Positions 53,935-59,091 of a DNA stretch of 64,000 nt are shown here, piece after piece (the stretch's first letter is position 1; each line of letters starts with the position of its first letter). The stretch covers positions 1,984,001 through 2,048,000 of the forward strand of contig OY970218.1 of NCBI GenBank assembly GCA_963713975.1, in the 5' to 3' direction. The position numbers and the translations under genes are program-made. Source of the stretch: an uncultured Chloroflexia bacterium. Its GTDB lineage: Bacteria > Chloroflexota > Limnocylindria > Limnocylindrales > CSP1-4. The notes beneath the pieces were generated by a model. That model saw only the letters and a program-made list of their open reading frames with translations, was not told the origin of the DNA and ran no database searches.

Positions 53935-54957
53935 CTACGTGCCCGGAGACCCATCCGTGCCGAGCCGGCCCCCGCTCGATCGGCGCACCACGAGCTCCGT
54001 TGGCAGCACCTCGTCGCGGGTCGGTCCATCCGGGTCCGCCTGGCGCTCCAGGAGTACCGAGACGGCCCGTCGCCCGATCTCCGCGGCCGGCTGTGCGATC
54101 ACGGTCAGGAACGGGAAGGTGACCATCGCCCGGGGCAGGTCGTCGAAGCCCACGACAGCCACGTCGTCGGGGACCCGGAGCCCGAGCTCGTCGAGGGCGT
54201 GCAGGACGCCGATGGCGATGAAGTTGTTGGTTGCGAACAGCGCCGTCGGTGCCGGCTCACGCTGCATCGCGGCCAGGGCCATGTCGTGGCCGCTCTCGAT
54301 CGAGAAGGCGCCGTGGATGACGACGGGTTCGCCGAGCCCGGCCTCGTCCACCACGGCGCGGCGGAAGCCGGCGACCCGGTCGACCGCGGTGGGGACCGAC
54401 GCAGGTCCCGAGAGCACGGCGAGGTGCTGATGTCCGAGCCCGACGAGCAGTTGGCCGAGCTCGCGCGCCCCGCCCTCGGAGTCTGCCCGGACCACGTCCA
54501 CGTCCGCAGCCTGCGGTCGCCGGTCCACGACCACCAGCGGGACGCCACGGTCACGACACAGGCGCACGGTCCCTGCGCCGGTAGCGGCCGGCACGAGCAG
54601 CAGGCCGTCGACCTGTCGTTGCAGCAGCAGGGCGGCCAACCGCGCCTCCTCGTCCTCGCGTTCGTCACTGTTGGCCAGCAGCATCGAGATCCCCGCTTCT
54701 CGGGCCGCGGTCTCGACGCCCTGGGCGAGCGTGGTGAAGAACGGGTTCGTCATGTCCGGCAGGAGCAGCGCGATCGTGTCGGTCCGGTTCGTCCGCAGGT
54801 TTCGGGCCACGGTGTTCGGCATGTAGCCCGTCTCCGTGAGCGCCGCCTCCACCCGGGCCCGGAGCTTCGGGCTCACCGATCCGGACCCGTTGACCACCCG
54901 GGACACCGTCATGGGCGAGACGCCGGCCCGCCGTGCGACATCGGTCAGGTTCGCCAT
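53935..54957 (-). CDS. LacI family transcriptional regulator (paralog of 50498..51556)
   Basis: LTDVARRAGVSPMTVSRVVN, NPFF, VPDDVAVVGFDD; last gene of the epimerase operon. Confidence 0.95.
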   Translation of the reverse strand: MANLTDVARRAGVSPMTVSRVVNGSGSVSPKLRARVEAALTETGYMPNTVARNLRTNRTDTIALLLPDMTNPFFTTLAQGVETAAREAGISMLLANSDEREDEEARLAALLLQRQVDGLLLVPAATGAGTVRLCRDRGVPLVVVDRRPQAADVDVVRADSEGGARELGQLLVGLGHQHLAVLSGPASVPTAVDRVAGFRRAVVDEAGLGEPVVIHGAFSIESGHDMALAAMQREPAPTALFATNNFIAIGVLHALDELGLRVPDDVAVVGFDDLPRAMVTFPFLTVIAQPAAEIGRRAVSVLLERQADPDGPTRDEVLPTELVVRRSSGGRLGTDGSPGT

Positions 54958-54961
54958 GACC

Positions 54962-55867
54962 CTAGAACCCCCGGAGCTTCGTGCTCGATCTTGCCGGCAG
55001 TCCCGCGTGCGGCAGGCGCTGGAGCACCACGTACTCGATACCGTGCTCGCGGCAGAAGTCGGCCTTCTCCGGCTGGTCGCCGTCCTCGTTGACGACATAG
55101 CGGGCGGGCCGGATCCTGGCGATCTCGGGCTCCGCGTCCATCCAGCCAGAGCCCGACGAGACGACACACTGGTGGACGCTGCGCACGGCGCCGACCATGT
55201 ACTGCCGCTCCTGCTCGCGCTGCAGCGGATGCCCCGGACCCTTGAGGAGCTCCACGTTCCGGTCACTGCCGACGACCGCGTACAGCGCGCCGTAGGCCGC
55301 GGCGTCCATGAAGAACCGGATGTGGCCCGAGTGCAGCCAGTCGTAGCAGCCGGTGATCACGACGCGTGGAATGTCGGCAGCTGGCGGCGTGGGATCGGGG
55401 ATCGGGAAGCCTGCGCGGTCCGATGGCGAGATCGTCCGATACGCGACGCCGCGCTCGCCAGCCGCGGCCCGGAGCCCCGCATCGTCGTCCTCGGTGCGGA
55501 CCACGAGCGTGGCCGCCCGGGCGGCAAGCATGTCCATGTCCTCGGCCACGGGCCGGTCGACGACCTCGACGCGCTCGACCCAGCGGATGGACTCCGCGAG
55601 GAACCGACGCTCGGCGACGGGGAAGGCGGGCGGCGAGCCCGTGACGGCGGCCAGGAGCGCATCGGACGGGACGCGGACATGGAGCGGACCCAGCGCGGCG
55701 GCCTCCTGGAGGAAGCGGACGTCACCGGAACGGAGGTTGTCCAGGCTCGCCTCGACGACCACGGGCGCGCGCTCAGGCGCGACCACGGGCGCGCGCTCAG
55801 GCGCGACCACGGGCGCGCGCTCAGGCGCGACCACGGGCGCGCGCTCAGGCGCGGGATCCGTCGTCAC
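54962..55867 (-). CDS. Nucleotidyltransferase with two tandem HxGH (cytidylyltransferase-like) domains
   Basis: C-domain TGCYDWLHSGH...GSD...ER...RSST; N-domain degenerate SLDNLRSGD...SD...ER; GTGA overlap with the upstream gene. Confidence 0.85.
   Translation of the reverse strand: MTTDPAPERAPVVAPERAPVVAPERAPVVAPERAPVVVEASLDNLRSGDVRFLQEAAALGPLHVRVPSDALLAAVTGSPPAFPVAERRFLAESIRWVERVEVVDRPVAEDMDMLAARAATLVVRTEDDDAGLRAAAGERGVAYRTISPSDRAGFPIPDPTPPAADIPRVVITGCYDWLHSGHIRFFMDAAAYGALYAVVGSDRNVELLKGPGHPLQREQERQYMVGAVRSVHQCVVSSGSGWMDAEPEIARIRPARYVVNEDGDQPEKADFCREHGIEYVVLQRLPHAGLPARSSTKLRGF
55757..55852. repeat. Perfect 24-bp tandem repeat x4 (encodes APERAPVV x4)
   Basis: GACCACGGGCGCGCGCTCAGGCGC at 55757, 55781, 55805 and 55829. 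Confidence 0.95.
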
Positions 55868-56712
55868 GCGCGGCGCACCGCGATCCGCGCCGAACCTGCG
55901 GGCGGCTCCTCGGACGCCACGATCACGTAGCCGCCACCGCAGCCGGACAGCATCGCGCCGGCGTGCTCGGCGGCATAGGCGCCCACCAGGCCGAGGAGGT
56001 CGATGGTGATCGTGGGGTGCGCGTAGACCTGCGGCAGGAGGGCGTCCCAGGACCGGGTGCACTCGTTGAGCGACTCGCCGAGCGCCGGGAGGTCCATGGC
56101 CACGATCGCGTCGTAGCAGGCCTTCCCACTGGCGCTGAGGCGGGCCACCCACGCGGGATCAAGGCGCTTGTCCCCGAGCGGGCCGTAGCCCGGTGGGCGC
56201 TGCCCGATCGGGACCAGGTGGATGACCCGTTCCAGCCACGCTGCCACCGCGGGGTCCACGGTGGACTCAACGTGGGCCGGGAACCAGCCGCCATCCACGG
56301 TGGCGTCGTAGTCCAGCCGGCTGACGCCGGGGTAGATGAGCCCGCACATGTCCTGTGACCCGGAGGGCTCGATGAGATTGGCGTTCTCGGCCACGTAGAG
56401 CTCGCGGACCAGGCCGGCCGGCGCCCGGTTGGCCGGGAGGTAGTCACCCCACAGCGCCCTGGCGGCGGCCCTCGTGCCGGTCGCCATCCCGCAGCGGTCC
56501 ATGTAGCGGACCGTGGGCTCCAGCGAGACGACCACCATCGATCCCGGTGGCTCCGGGTTGATCGAGGACAGGAACGGCTGGTCGATCCAGCCCCCGGCCA
56601 TCTGCAGCCGGTAGGGCAGGGGACCGATCGCCCCCTCGAGAGCGGAGGGCATGCCGGTGGTCGGGGAGGTGGCGTTGGTCGGGGAGACTCCGCTCGTGGC
56701 CGACCCGGTCAT
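55864..56712 (-). CDS. Divergent GHMP-family sugar kinase-like protein
   Basis: PYRLQMAGGWID (PxR...GGxxD), RCGMATGT (degenerate motif II), SGSQD, GAMLSGCGGG (motif III). Confidence 0.72.
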   Translation of the reverse strand: MTGSATSGVSPTNATSPTTGMPSALEGAIGPLPYRLQMAGGWIDQPFLSSINPEPPGSMVVVSLEPTVRYMDRCGMATGTRAAARALWGDYLPANRAPAGLVRELYVAENANLIEPSGSQDMCGLIYPGVSRLDYDATVDGGWFPAHVESTVDPAVAAWLERVIHLVPIGQRPPGYGPLGDKRLDPAWVARLSASGKACYDAIVAMDLPALGESLNECTRSWDALLPQVYAHPTITIDLLGLVGAYAAEHAGAMLSGCGGGYVIVASEEPPAGSARIAVRRA

Positions 56713-56717
56713 CGTCG

Positions 56718-57779: not shown

Positions 57780-57845
57780 CGAGGTTCCTCTGGTCGGGTG
57801 CCAGGGGTCGAGCCCCGGGCGTCACTTCTGGTTTGTTTTCTCCTG

Positions 57846-57859
57846 TGGTAACGTTACCA
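57846..57859. promoter_or_regulatory. LacI-type operator
   Basis: Perfect palindrome TGGTAACGTTACCA in the AT-richer divergent epimerase/manC intergenic region. Confidence 0.78.
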
Positions 57860-57942
57860 AGCATTGCTCCAGTTGTCCATGCCTCAATTCCACCGGCTGC
57901 AGACCGACAGCCGGCCATCCACCAGGAACAGGCGGTGCACCG

Positions 57943-59091
57943 ATGTACGCAGTGATCCTCGCCGGCGGTGGAGGCACTCGCCTGTGGCCGCTCTCGCGCC
58001 CGGAACGACCGAAGCCGTTCCTGCCGCTGATCGGTGACCGGACGCTCCTCCAGCGGACGTGGGACCGGATCGTTCCGGAGCTGGTGGACGCGGGCGATGT
58101 GGCCGTGGTCACCGACCGCCGGTACGTGGGCATCGTCCGGGACCAGCTCCCGGACCTCCTCTCCGACATGCTCCTCGCGGAGCCCGTGGGGCGGAACACC
58201 GCGGCGGCGGTCGCGTTCGCGGCGGCTGCCCTCGAGCGCCCGGACGACGAGGTGATGCTCGTCCTGCCGGCCGACCACCTCGTCGCGGACGAGCCGGGGT
58301 TCCGGGACATCCTCCGGCGTGCGGCCACGCTCGCCGGACGGGCGGGTGCCGACGGCGGGCCCGGTCGTCTGGTCACCCTCGGCATCGCACCGGACGGTCC
58401 GGAGACCGGATACGGGTACATCGTGGCCGGCGACGAGATCCCCGGATCCGGGGCCGCGGTCGTCGTCTCCCGGTTCGTGGAGAAGCCGTCGGGCGCGAAC
58501 GCAGAGGCGATGCTCGCCGGCCCCGTCCCGGTCGCCTGGAACGCGGGCATCTTCCTGTGGCGGCGTGACGCGCTCCGGGCCGCGTTCGAGGCGGGCTCGC
58601 CCGACATCCTCGCGGACATAGGGGTCGGCGTCGCCGGTGGGGAAGCGGGGGGAGCAGCCGGCCTGGACGCCGCGTACGCCCGCGTCCGCCCGACCTCGAT
58701 CGACTACGCGGTTCTCGAGCCGGCTGCCGCGATGGGCGGCGTGGCGATGCTCAGCGCCGATGTCGGGTGGAGCGATCTCGGCAGCTGGAGCGCTCTCCGG
58801 GACGCCCTGCTTGCGCTCGCCGCGGACGGTGCCGGCGAGAGCGCGGCCCAGGGCGTCGTGGGCCGTGGCCCGCGCCGCGACATGGGTTCGCAGCGGACGC
58901 TGGTCCTGGCAGGCGATCGCCCGATCGTAACGATCGGGCTGCGGGACGTGATCGTGGTCGACGCCGGGGACGTGGTGCTGGTCGCCGCCGCCGACGCCTC
59001 GCAGCAGGTCAAGGTCGCGGCGGAGGCGTGGTCCGCGGCGGGCGGCGGCATCCGGGAGGCAGGCGGCGCGGCCGCGGAGGCGCGAAGATAG
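57943..59091 (+). CDS. manC: Mannose-1-phosphate guanylyltransferase
   Basis: VILAGG.GTRLWPLSR...PKPF, EPVGRNTA, PADH, ETGYGYI, FVEKP, WNAGIF, SIDYAV, WSDLGSW. Confidence 0.93.
   Translation: MYAVILAGGGGTRLWPLSRPERPKPFLPLIGDRTLLQRTWDRIVPELVDAGDVAVVTDRRYVGIVRDQLPDLLSDMLLAEPVGRNTAAAVAFAAAALERPDDEVMLVLPADHLVADEPGFRDILRRAATLAGRAGADGGPGRLVTLGIAPDGPETGYGYIVAGDEIPGSGAAVVVSRFVEKPSGANAEAMLAGPVPVAWNAGIFLWRRDALRAAFEAGSPDILADIGVGVAGGEAGGAAGLDAAYARVRPTSIDYAVLEPAAAMGGVAMLSADVGWSDLGSWSALRDALLALAADGAGESAAQGVVGRGPRRDMGSQRTLVLAGDRPIVTIGLRDVIVVDAGDVVLVAAADASQQVKVAAEAWSAAGGGIREAGGAAAEARR

What the first reader, a model, noticed from the sequence alone, without database searches (positions are those of the whole stretch)
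53935..59091. Sugar-inducible GDP-mannose 3,5-epimerase operon: a possible GDP-based Leloir-like salvage route for L-galactose/L-gulose
SEEN: a tightly coupled operon of GME-like epimerase, GHMP-like kinase, HxGH nucleotidyltransferase and LacI. It is divergent from manC, with a perfect LacI-type operator between them. It sits beside fucI and has no glycosyltransferase, flippase or polymerase nearby. KNOWN: GME interconverts GDP-D-mannose with GDP-L-galactose and GDP-L-gulose, and L-fucose is 6-deoxy-L-galactose. LacI repressors usually control catabolic genes rather than glycan synthesis. INFERENCE: kinase gives L-hexose-1-P, the transferase gives GDP-L-hexose, the epimerase run in reverse gives GDP-D-mannose, and ManC gives Man-1-P. 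That is the kinase/transferase/epimerase logic of the Leloir pathway applied to an L-sugar.
Basis: partly seen in the sequence, partly recalled or inferred. Interest (0 to 1): 0.8.

Follow-up and report, generated by a model that had tools for sequence, protein, structure and literature searches.

The report
Conserved GDP-sugar L-galactose/L-fucose salvage cassette
A repressor-controlled gene set, conserved in hundreds of soil and water bacteria, looks built to convert an L-fucose-like sugar (most plausibly L-galactose) into ordinary mannose through GDP-sugars, a route that has not been described.

Summary
On the minus strand lie a GDP-mannose 3,5-epimerase (GME) homolog, a 282-aa protein, a tandem HxGH nucleotidyltransferase (NT) and a LacI repressor. 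They are divergent from manC, with a genome-unique palindrome between.

The 282-aa protein matches no Pfam, NCBIfam or PDB sequence directly. Its model has a GHMP-kinase fold, and its family profile matches the fucokinase domain of Bacteroides FKP best. The FKP residues that touch L-fucose align to invariant residues.

GME-kinase-NT in this order occurs in 63 of 80 loci fetched from many phyla. Their 217 flanking ORFs show FucU mutarotases, GH29 fucosidases and sulfatases, and no glycosyltransferase family in the listed tallies. GME homologs without the kinase sit among glycosyltransferases and form a separate branch. Where the NT is missing, FKP-type fucose pyrophosphorylase genes are present.

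Best reading (about 0.5): L-galactose, or a sugar of that configuration, goes to the 1-phosphate, then GDP-L-sugar, then GDP-mannose, then Man-1-P. No step is shown biochemically. The nucleotide, the true sugar and the direction of flux are inferred. I found no such pathway in print.

The parts
53935..54957 (-). LacI-family repressor (340 aa), last gene of the operon
   Evidence: Pfam LacI HTH 67.8 bits plus Peripla_BP_1/3. The best NCBIfam hits (RbsR, CytR) are all below their cut-offs. A LacI homolog lies in 36 of 80 related loci.
54962..55867 (-). Tandem cytidylyltransferase-fold nucleotidyltransferase. The N-half is a degenerate copy (HxGH replaced by LRSG). The C-half is active-looking, with HSGH and a C-terminal R-x-S-T-x-L-R-G-F. 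The true start is probably near 55768.
   Evidence: Pfam CTP_transf_like 40.9 bits on residues 171-270. NCBIfam rfaE_dom_II 61 bits, below its cut-off of 181.5. PDB hits: ECT 3elb E 3e-10, 5x9q, TagD. N-half against C-half by hhalign: probability 99.9, E 1.4e-33. In 25 aligned homologs H146, G148, H149 and the R260/S262/L265/R266/G267 tail are invariant.
55756..55853 (.). Perfect 24-nt x 4.1 tandem repeat at the kinase/NT junction. It reads (PERAPVVA)x4 in the NT frame.
   Evidence: TRF score 196, 100% matches. The homologs listed show no such repeat in the first 60 residues printed.
55864..56712 (-). Compact GHMP-fold sugar 1-kinase candidate (282 aa), fucokinase-like, of a family without a Pfam model
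   Evidence: No Pfam, NCBIfam or PDB sequence hit. AF2 mean pLDDT 92.9. Foldseek top hits are WcbL heptokinase, FKP fucokinase and a Bacteroides heptose kinase. The family profile's best PDB match is the FKP fucokinase domain, E 3.5e-15. R35, W42, D44, G118, Q120 and D121 align to FKP R592, W599, D601, G759, Q761 and D762.
56718..57779 (-). GDP-mannose 3,5-epimerase homolog (353 aa), first gene of the operon
   Evidence: 2c59 E 6e-79. S137, C139, Y168, K172, N197, K211, R241 and R307 match AtGME S143, C145, Y174, K178, N203, K217, R243 and R306. It falls in the cassette-type branch, SH-aLRT 100.
57846..57859 (.). Perfect 14-bp palindrome TGGTAACGTTACCA, candidate LacI operator in the divergent control region
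   Evidence: Unique in the genome, expected 0.0015. Upstream of GME it is exact in 10 and has one mismatch in 11 of 76 loci.
57943..59091 (+). Mannose-1-phosphate guanylyltransferase (ManC type, without a PMI domain), divergent from the operon
   Evidence: Pfam NTP_transferase 115 bits plus ManC_GMP_beta-helix. TIGR01479 235.8-237.3 bits over positions 1-341 of 467. A second ManC-like gene lies elsewhere in the genome. A ManC homolog is in 14 of 80 related loci, several directly after the NT.
59114..59992 (+). Shikimate-dehydrogenase-like gene 22 nt after manC. It may be co-transcribed. No role is assigned.
   Evidence: NCBIfam aroE 196.3 bits against a cut-off of 200.2.
46598..53860 (+). Context: sugar ABC transporter (ATPase, permease, binding protein), second LacI, FucU/RbsD mutarotase and L-fucose isomerase, convergent on the operon
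   Evidence: The same block (FucI, FucU, LacI, binding protein) lies beside the cassette in L005-L008 and L020.

Best explanation
The operon encodes a GDP-linked salvage and catabolic route for an L-galacto-configured hexose, most plausibly L-galactose, with L-fucose as a likely co-substrate of the first two enzymes.

Proposed steps:
1. The free sugar is liberated by fucosidase-type enzymes, taken up, and anomerised by FucU.
2. The compact fucokinase-like GHMP kinase phosphorylates it at C1.
3. The tandem HxGH nucleotidyltransferase joins the sugar 1-phosphate to GMP from GTP, releasing PPi and giving GDP-beta-L-galactose.
4. The cassette-type GME runs towards its favoured side and gives GDP-D-mannose.
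5. ManC, run backwards with the PPi, gives mannose 1-phosphate and returns the GTP.

The net reaction is L-Gal + ATP -> Man-1-P + ADP. LacI holds both divergent transcription units shut through the single palindrome until an effector appears.

Shown by sequence and comparison:
- the folds and catalytic residues of all four enzymes;
- conserved gene order across phyla;
- the link to fucose-type catabolic genes;
- the conserved operator.

Inferred: the sugar, the nucleotide, the direction of flux and the effector.
For: Kinase:
- GHMP fold.
- The best profile match is the FKP fucokinase domain, E 3.5e-15, against 9e-9 for the best heptose kinase.
- FKP's fucose-contact and catalytic residues R592, W599, D601, G759, Q761 and D762 (passages of PMC11982464) align to R35, W42, D44, G118, Q120 and D121. 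All are invariant in 26 sequences except Q120, which is nearly invariant at >=90%.
- FKP itself converts L-galactose to GDP-L-galactose.

Kinase-NT link:
- 8 of 10 long representatives scanned carry CTP_transf_like N-terminal of the kinase domain. One of them also carries an L-rhamnose mutarotase domain.

Cassette conservation, out of 80 loci:
- GME upstream on the same strand in 72;
- NT downstream in 70;
- all three in 63.
- At least 530 matching stretches were found in a one-genome-per-species collection.
- 4 of 5 genomes whose kinase locus lacks GME encode a 71-78% identical GME elsewhere.

Nucleotide:
- In L044 an FKP-type Fucose_pyrophosphorylase gene precedes GME-kinase and no NT follows.
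- PF07959 is over its cut-off in 4 of 4 NT-less genomes tested, against 1 of 6 NT-bearing ones.
- In L065 a ManC-type transferase follows the kinase.

Catabolic setting:
- GH29 fucosidase touches or splits the cassette in 7 of 80 loci.
- FucU-type genes are in 18 of 80 loci.
- Sulfatases, GH30, GH31, GH42 and GH43 also occur.
- LacI is in 36 of 80 loci.
- The operator is conserved.

Contrast:
- Kinase-less GME homologs of the same phylum are flanked by glycosyltransferases.
- They form the other side of a branch with SH-aLRT 100.

GME:
- Its eight defining residues are intact in 66-67 of 67 cassette rows.
- Tobacco work cited in the review found the equilibrium unfavourable to the forward, ascorbate-forming direction (PMC8787198).

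ManC:
- It shares the control region here.
- A second ManC-like gene exists in the genome.
Against: - There is no biochemical or expression evidence for any step.
- The nearest named relatives of the NT use ATP (HldE domain II) or CTP (TagD, ECT). Use of GTP is inferred only from the complementary distribution with GFPP-type genes, in a small and non-independent sample.
- The conserved pocket argues for L-fucose at least as much as for L-galactose. FKP's Km for L-Gal is 100-fold higher than for L-Fuc.
- L-galactose is a minor natural sugar, yet the cassette is widespread and highly conserved.
- ManC is in only 14 of 80 loci. Many loci, for example the Latescibacterota ones, have no sugar-catabolic neighbour.
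- The window's own genome has no GH29.
- ManC plus GME is also the anabolic route to GDP-L-galactose.
- Cassette GMEs carry subfamily-specific changes beside the catalytic Cys (A140, N142) and at R166, E181 and R186. Their specificity may therefore differ from that of plant GME.
- The Pfam tallies list only the 25 commonest of 119 and 126 families, so single glycosyltransferases among the flanks could be hidden.
- The 80 loci are the best of 530 or more hits, and many are close kin.
Confidence: 0.5

Rival explanations
1. Anabolic supply module. The kinase and NT salvage scavenged L-fucose or L-galactose into GDP-L-sugars for the cell's own glycans, as FKP does in Bacteroides. ManC plus GME provide the de novo branch to GDP-L-galactose. 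The glycosyltransferases lie elsewhere.
For: ManC followed by GME is the textbook forward route. FKP-type salvage genes also stand apart from glycosyltransferase clusters (my recollection). The reviews ascribe bacterial GME to LPS and antibiotic synthesis (passages). The genome has a Gmd-like gene, so it makes GDP-deoxyhexoses.
Against: Putting a de novo branch and a salvage branch for the same product under one sugar-type repressor makes little regulatory sense, whereas a linear route needs all the genes at once. No GT family appears in the top-25 lists for 217 flanks, while GTs dominate the flanks of kinase-less GMEs. Fucosidases, sulfatases and mutarotases are inside or beside the cassette.
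Confidence: 0.25
2. L-fucose is the true substrate, and the cassette-type GME has a changed specificity. For example, it might interconvert GDP-L-fucose with GDP-6-deoxy-D-mannose or another 6-deoxy sugar. The product would have a fate not yet known.
For: The pocket residues match those of a fucokinase. The cassette is linked to FucU, FucI and GH29. Cassette-specific substitutions lie next to the catalytic Cys. Cassette GMEs form a separate, long branch.
Against: No catabolic continuation from GDP-D-rhamnose is known to me. The window and several loci already carry the FucI route for L-fucose. All eight residues that define GME are unchanged. The link with ManC fits GDP-mannose.
Confidence: 0.12
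3. The kinase and NT activate a different compound (a heptose, D-arabinose or a polyol phosphate), perhaps as an ADP or CDP derivative. The epimerase would then act on that nucleotide sugar.
For: The best NCBIfam hit of the NT is the heptose 1-phosphate adenylyltransferase domain. The top Foldseek hit of the kinase is a heptokinase. FKP also takes D-arabinose.
Against: The heptose kinases have Gly where this family and FKP have the sugar-stacking Trp (alignments). The profile E-value favours FKP by six orders of magnitude. The epimerase keeps every GME-defining residue that was checked, including the Arg that contacts the substrate's diphosphate, R241 = AtGME R243. No heptose-pathway gene (GmhA or GmhB type) appears in the flank tallies.
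Confidence: 0.08

Closest known systems
Leloir pathway in its pyrophosphorylase (Isselbacher) form: GalK, UDP-sugar pyrophosphorylase, GalE, UDP-glucose pyrophosphorylase
   Same: The logic is the same. A GHMP anomeric kinase is followed by NTP-dependent activation, epimerisation of the nucleotide sugar to a central one, and release as a hexose 1-phosphate with return of the NTP. This comparison rests on established knowledge, recalled.
   Different: The carrier here is GDP, not UDP. The sugar is an L-hexose and the epimerisation is double (C3 and C5). The transferase has the HxGH cytidylyltransferase fold, not the UGPase or GalT fold. No exchange transferase of the GalT type is present.
FKP, the bifunctional L-fucokinase/GDP-fucose pyrophosphorylase of Bacteroides fragilis (PDB 9iip, 9iit, 5yys)
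   Same: It is the best profile match of the kinase. Its sugar-contact and catalytic residues are conserved here. It is a two-step salvage of an L-galacto-configured sugar to a GDP-sugar. FKP also accepts L-galactose.
   Different: The kinase here is about 250-280 aa, against about 360 for the FKP kinase part, with 11-15% identity in the fold matches. It has no Pfam match. Its partner transferase has an unrelated fold, except in a few loci. It is coupled to GME, and FKP is not.
ADP-heptose and GDP-heptose activation enzymes (HldE domain II; HddA/WcbL)
   Same: Both pair a sugar kinase with an HxGH-fold sugar-1-phosphate nucleotidyltransferase. These are the top Foldseek and NCBIfam neighbours.
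   Different: The scores are far below the family cut-offs (61 against 181.5 bits). The sugar-pocket Trp is absent from the heptose kinases. No heptose-pathway genes are nearby.
Plant Smirnoff-Wheeler pathway (GMP, GME, GDP-L-galactose phosphorylase)
   Same: The GME chemistry is the same and all catalytic residues are conserved. The ManC and GME steps are the same.
   Different: The proposed direction is the reverse. Entry is by kinase plus pyrophosphorylase rather than exit by a HIT-family phosphorylase. It is not linked to ascorbate.
Oxidative L-galactose catabolism (L-galactose dehydrogenase route; Luteolibacter LG18, Bacteroides vulgatus)
   Same: The presumed substrate is the same. This is the only bacterial L-galactose route I found in print (PMC12632266, abstract and passages).
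   Different: That route is non-phosphorylative and oxidative, passing through L-galactonate and D-tagaturonate, with no nucleotide sugar. The word GDP does not occur in that paper.

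Membership tests
GDP-mannose 3,5-epimerase (NDP-sugar SDR) | Ser/Tyr/Lys triad for C4 oxidation and reduction (AtGME S143, Y174, K178) | tested here: met
   S137, Y168 and K172 in the alignment. Residue list from PMC8787198. 67 of 67 cassette rows.
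GDP-mannose 3,5-epimerase (NDP-sugar SDR) | Cys/Lys acid-base pair (C145, K217) and the Cys-acidifying Arg (R306). This set separates GME from GalE and from GDP-fucose synthase. | tested here: met
   C139, K211 and R307. C in 67 of 67, K in 66 of 67, R in 67 of 67 rows.
GDP-mannose 3,5-epimerase (NDP-sugar SDR) | Interconverts GDP-D-mannose and GDP-L-galactose/L-gulose | not testable with these tools
   Needs an enzyme assay. Cassette-specific substitutions at 140, 142, 166, 181 and 186 leave the specificity open.
GHMP kinase superfamily, fucokinase/heptose-kinase branch | Two-domain GHMP fold | tested here: met
   AF2 pLDDT 92.9. 75 PDB chains at E <= 0.001, and all those listed are GHMP enzymes.
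GHMP kinase superfamily, fucokinase/heptose-kinase branch | Motif I Arg, sugar-binding Trp/Asp and the catalytic Asp of the G-x-Q-D motif, as in FKP (R592, W599, D601, Q761, D762) | tested here: met
   R35, W42, D44, Q120 and D121 in the alignment. All are invariant in A1 except Q120, which is nearly invariant. Residue roles from PMC11982464.
GHMP kinase superfamily, fucokinase/heptose-kinase branch | Glycine-rich phosphate loop (motif II) and G-A-G-G-G-G motif III | tested here: inconclusive
   Motif III, SG(A/C)GGGGY, is present. Motif II is shortened and divergent (SGMATSTR against SGLGTSS in 3k85).
GHMP kinase superfamily, fucokinase/heptose-kinase branch | Match to the Pfam GHMP_kinases_N or GHMP_kinases_C models | tested here: not met
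   No hit for the window protein. There are only weak GHMP_kinases_C hits in distant fused relatives; the best is E 1.3e-6 in P0240.
Cytidylyltransferase-like (HxGH) nucleotidyltransferases | HxGH motif and a Pfam CTP_transf_like match over the cut-off | tested here: met
   40.9 bits against a cut-off of 21. HSGH is invariant in the C-half. The N-half is a duplicate without HxGH.
Cytidylyltransferase-like (HxGH) nucleotidyltransferases | Membership of a named equivalog (HldE domain II, TagD, PPAT) | tested here: not met
   All are below their cut-offs: 61.1 against 181.5, 31.3 against 165.4, 26.3 against 104.
LacI-family repressor with operator | N-terminal LacI HTH, periplasmic-binding-protein-like effector domain, and a palindromic operator with central CG near the regulated promoter | tested here: met
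   Domains. The palindrome is unique in the genome and conserved upstream of GME in related LacI-bearing loci. Binding and effector were not tested.
Leloir/Isselbacher-type salvage pathway | Kinase, nucleotidyltransferase, NDP-sugar epimerase and a pyrophosphorylase acting in sequence on one sugar | not testable with these tools
   Only the gene content, order, fusions and context support it. Flux and intermediates need experiments.

The most novel reading that the evidence does not exclude
A previously undescribed, widespread phosphorylative route for L-galactose and related L-galacto sugars in environmental polysaccharide degraders. It would have three new elements:
- a new compact fucokinase-like kinase family;
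- a new tandem HxGH-type GDP-L-sugar pyrophosphorylase;
- a distinct GME subfamily working catabolically, from GDP-L-Gal to GDP-Man.

Bacterial GME would then have two separate biological roles: glycan synthesis, and L-sugar catabolism.
Probability: 0.45. Interest if true: 0.85.

Novelty: new variant of a known kind. Interest (0 to 1): 0.72.

Why it matters
If the reading is true:
- It gives a function to a kinase-like family with more than 6,800 members that has no Pfam model and is named only 'hypothetical protein'.
- It gives bacterial GME a catabolic role that the reviews do not consider.
- It adds a second, ATP-cheap route for L-galactose beside the oxidative one.
- It would change how metagenomes of soil, peat and sediment degraders are read for the use of fucose- and L-galactose-bearing plant and algal polymers. 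The phyla concerned include Chloroflexota, Acidobacteriota, Planctomycetota, Latescibacterota and Verrucomicrobiota.

Tried and rejected
- Single-sequence searches of the kinase against Pfam, NCBIfam and the PDB found nothing useful. The profile and the fold were needed.
- The search for related loci with the diverse alignment A1 had no conserved stretch to search with. The narrower A2 worked.
- The sigma-70 scan found 0 promoter-like sites in 53800-59200. I treat this as uninformative for a 70% G+C genome.
- Heptose activation was considered and set aside, for two reasons. The heptose kinases have Gly where this family has the invariant Trp, and no heptose-pathway genes appear nearby.
- Polyol-phosphate activation of the TagD or ECT type was set aside because the partner is an anomeric-kinase-type GHMP enzyme that is often fused to the NT.
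- L-gulose was set aside as the main substrate because the conserved residues contact the C2-C4 hydroxyls of the L-galacto configuration.
- The careful tree did not finish in 300 s, so the quick IQ-TREE result is reported.
- In one search my greedy ORF picker took the wrong strand for L088, L097 and L098. In one search these were replaced by tblastn segments, and L092 was left out because of an in-frame TAG. In one search those three rows were dropped, leaving 11 non-cassette rows.
- Cassette GME ORFs under 320 aa were dropped before the tree. That left 67 cassette rows, including the window, L002 and L003.
- The operator scan at up to 3 mismatches (29 of 76 loci) includes some likely chance matches. 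The counts at 0 mismatches (10) and 1 mismatch (11) are the safer ones. No shuffle control was run for it.
- Supplements of PMC6678494 (Figure S3, genomic context of MfGM35E) could not be seen.
- Complex prediction, read laying, the look-up of sequencing runs and the second structure job were not used.

Full report
OBSERVATION. The window is about 70% G+C, so ORF lists are crowded. Third-position G+C and family hits pick out the real genes.

On the minus strand lie four genes.
- A GME homolog, 57779..56718, 353 aa.
- A 282-aa ORF, 56712..55864.
- A cytidylyltransferase-fold protein, 55867..54962.
- A LacI repressor, 54957..53935.

The gaps are 5 nt and 4 nt, and there is a possible 4-nt start/stop overlap.

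ManC (57943-59091) is divergent. The palindrome TGGTAACGTTACCA lies at 57846-57859. It occurs once in the 3.62-Mb genome, against 0.0015 expected.

FucI, FucU, a second LacI and a sugar ABC transporter run convergently into the operon. Upstream of them is an L-rhamnose cluster with RhaD, RhaB and RhaI. The operon therefore abuts a 6-deoxy-L-hexose utilisation island.

THE FOUR ENZYMES.

GME.
- The best PDB match is Arabidopsis GME, E 6e-79.
- A review lists the residues that define GME and separate it from GalE and from GDP-fucose synthase: S143, C145, Y174, K178, N203, K217, R243 and R306 (passages of PMC8787198).
- In the printed alignment they correspond to S137, C139, Y168, K172, N197, K211, R241 and R307. 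All are conserved in 66-67 of 67 cassette-type sequences.

Kinase.
- It has no Pfam, NCBIfam or PDB sequence match.
- 6,897 of the 8,000 candidates scored are homologs at E <= 0.001. Of the 120 listed, those that carry a name are called 'hypothetical protein', and none has a Pfam domain on record.
- A model from 26 homologs has mean pLDDT 92.9.
- Foldseek finds only GHMP enzymes among those listed. They are led by the heptokinase WcbL, the fucokinase part of FKP and a Bacteroides heptose kinase.
- A profile of the family finds the FKP fucokinase domain first (E 3.5e-15) and heptose kinases next (9e-9).
- The FKP structure paper names R592 and D762 as catalytic, and W599, D601, T602, G759 and Q761 as contacts of L-fucose (passages of PMC11982464).
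- These align to R35, D121, W42, D44, Q45, G118 and Q120. R35, W42, D44, G118 and D121 are invariant; Q120 is nearly invariant.
- The heptose kinases have Gly at the Trp position.
- The same paper shows that FKP converts L-galactose and D-arabinose, as well as L-fucose, to GDP-sugars.

NT.
- Its C-half carries HSGH and a conserved C-terminal R-x-S-T-x-L-R-G-F.
- It matches CTP_transf_like. It matches HldE domain II, TagD and ECT only weakly.
- Its N-half is an internal duplicate, hhalign E 1.4e-33, that has lost HxGH in all 25 sequences aligned.

ManC. It is an ordinary guanylyltransferase without the isomerase domain. A second ManC-like gene lies elsewhere in the genome.

THE CASSETTE ELSEWHERE.

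The best 80 loci come from Chloroflexota, Latescibacterota, Acidobacteriota, Planctomycetota (including the isolate Fontivita pretiosa), Verrucomicrobiota, Spirochaetota, Armatimonadota and others.

Counts among the 80 loci:

| Feature | Loci |
|---|---|
| GME upstream, same strand | 72 (68 adjacent) |
| NT downstream, same strand | 70 (68 adjacent) |
| No NT detected | 10, of which 2 are cut by a contig end |
| All three in order | 63 |
| LacI homolog | 36 |
| ManC | 14 |
| FucI | 8 |
| FucU-type gene | 18 (10 + 8) |
| GH29 fucosidase touching the cassette or between GME and kinase | 7 |

- In 4 of 5 genomes whose kinase locus lacks GME, a GME 71-78% identical to the window's lies elsewhere. 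In the fifth the best match is 58%.
- In one genome a GME-NT pair stands apart from the kinase.
- About 35 of the 150 listed cluster representatives are long proteins with the kinase domain at their C-terminal end (my reading of the table).
- Of 10 of these scanned, 8 carry CTP_transf_like before the kinase domain. One carries an L-rhamnose mutarotase domain as well, one a PNP_UDP_1 domain, and one a GT2 domain instead.

NUCLEOTIDE.
- In L044 (Acidobacteriota) the gene before GME-kinase is an FKP-type Fucose_pyrophosphorylase, 200.6 bits, and no NT follows.
- In L065 a ManC-type NTP_transferase follows the kinase.
- The NT query found nothing in three of five NT-less genomes and only partial matches in two.
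- PF07959 is over its cut-off in 4 of the 4 of these genomes that were searched, against 1 of 6 NT-bearing genomes (the window's own plus five others) and 1 of 14 control genomes.
- The sample is small and the genomes are not independent. The pattern is what non-orthologous displacement by a GDP-fucose pyrophosphorylase would give.

CONTROL FOR THE GLYCOSYLTRANSFERASE QUESTION.

I took the two nearest unlabelled ORFs of at least 130 aa on each side of the cassette, plus any inside it. That gave 217 ORFs from the 80 loci, which I scanned against Pfam in two batches.

The listed top-25 families are:
- RbsD_FucU 6
- Alpha_L_fucos 2 + 5
- PfkB 3 + 2
- sulfatase 2
- GH31 2, GH42 2, GH43 2
- ABC and MFS transporters
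- lineage-specific neighbours

No glycosyltransferase family is listed. Only 25 of 119 and 126 families are shown, so rare GT hits may be hidden.

In a 201-genome sample of the window's phylum, 17 genomes have a GME homolog at E <= 1e-60, but only 3 have the kinase. For the 15 kinase-less GME genes, 36 flanking ORFs give Glycos_transf_1 8, Glyco_tran_WecG 2, Bac_transf 1 and Glycos_transf_2 1.

In a quick maximum-likelihood tree, 67 cassette GMEs from many phyla and 14 kinase-less GMEs from the window's own phylum are the two sides of one branch, SH-aLRT 100. The two groups were sampled in different ways, which should be kept in mind.

Cassette GMEs differ from the others, and from Arabidopsis GME, at A140 and N142 beside the catalytic Cys, and at R166, E181 and R186.

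REGULATION.
- The palindrome is found upstream of GME in 10 loci exactly and in 11 more with one mismatch, out of 76 loci with a GME hit.
- All 10 exact sites and 10 of the 11 one-mismatch sites are in loci that also carry the LacI homolog. The exception is L003.
- Ten LacI-bearing loci show no site within 3 mismatches.
- For a 14-mer with at most one mismatch in 430 nt, chance is negligible. This is my estimate; no shuffle was run.

MECHANISM.

Shown by sequence and comparison:
- folds and catalytic residues;
- conserved order and fusions;
- the link with fucose-type mutarotases, fucosidases and sulfatases;
- the conserved operator;
- the separation from GT-linked GMEs.

Inferred:
- The kinase makes beta-L-Gal-1-P, and probably beta-L-Fuc-1-P.
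- The NT uses GTP.
- GME runs from GDP-L-Gal to GDP-Man, which the equilibrium favours.
- ManC returns GTP and gives Man-1-P.

L-galactose rather than L-fucose is proposed as the sugar that needs GME. GDP-L-fucose has no route back to a central sugar, and the FucI route for L-fucose stands next door.

A linear route also explains why kinase, NT, GME and ManC share one repressor. A de novo branch plus a salvage branch to the same product would not.

WHAT IS KNOWN.
- The reviews and the first bacterial GME paper link bacterial GME to LPS and antibiotic synthesis (passages).
- The FKP evolution paper does not mention cytidylyltransferase, L-galactose or Chloroflexota (term search).
- Searches for 'L-galactokinase', 'L-galactose kinase', 'L-galactose 1-kinase' and 'L-galactose-1-phosphate guanylyltransferase' found nothing. 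'GDP-L-galactose pyrophosphorylase' found one unrelated kiwifruit review.
- Three further searches found no bacterial GDP-linked L-galactose route.
- The only bacterial L-galactose catabolism found in print is oxidative (PMC12632266, abstract and passages; 'GDP' occurs 0 times).
- The library lacks most subscription journals, and supplements were closed.

VERDICT. It remains a hypothesis at about even odds until the sugar and the nucleotide are measured.

Noticed in passing
window 55756-55853: There is a perfect 24-nt x 4.1 tandem repeat at the kinase/NT junction. In the NT frame it reads (PERAPVVA)x4. Homologous NTs start just before the V.VSGSFDD motif and show no such repeat in their first residues. 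It is either a recent N-terminal extension or intergenic.
   Followed up: partly
window 32629-46317 and 46598-53860: An L-rhamnose cluster (fused RhaD aldolase/SDR, DeoR regulator, ABC transporter, RhaB, RhaI) is followed by a second ABC transporter, LacI, FucU and FucI. I found no fuculokinase or fuculose-phosphate aldolase among the ORFs annotated. RhaB and RhaD may serve both sugars.
   Followed up: partly
window 59114-59992: A shikimate-dehydrogenase-like gene lies 22 nt after manC, under the same divergent control region. Its aroE score of 196.3 bits is just under the cut-off of 200.2. Its link to the pathway, if any, is unknown.
   Followed up: no
window GME residues 140, 142, 166, 177, 181, 186, 254, 265: Some positions are invariant in 65-67 of 67 cassette GMEs but different in kinase-less GMEs. 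Where I could read the alignment, they also differ in Arabidopsis GME. Two of them flank the catalytic Cys. This may be a specificity change.
   Followed up: partly
L064:8869-10711; P0240; L038:4139-5620; L083:996-3134: There are variant partners of the kinase domain. A PNP_UDP_1 phosphorylase plus a PfkB kinase lie downstream in L064, and PNP_UDP_1 is fused in P0240. An HD-domain protein follows the kinase in L038, where the NT is missing. In L083 one open frame runs from the kinase into a hydroxyethylthiazole-kinase domain; this may be an artefact of my ORF call.
   Followed up: no
G000:C1:2540260-2541226 (outside the window): A Gmd-like gene matches the model in separate pieces (positions 2-277 and 287-341). 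This suggests a frameshift or an insertion.
   Followed up: no
G000:C1:1695905 (outside the window): This is the only other site in the genome within two mismatches of the palindrome: TGGTAGCGGTACCA. Its gene context was not examined.
   Followed up: no
L028 and L059: My gene maps label two GME-like ORFs in each of these loci, and in L028 an extra NT-like ORF upstream. These may be duplications or split genes. They were not checked.
   Followed up: no
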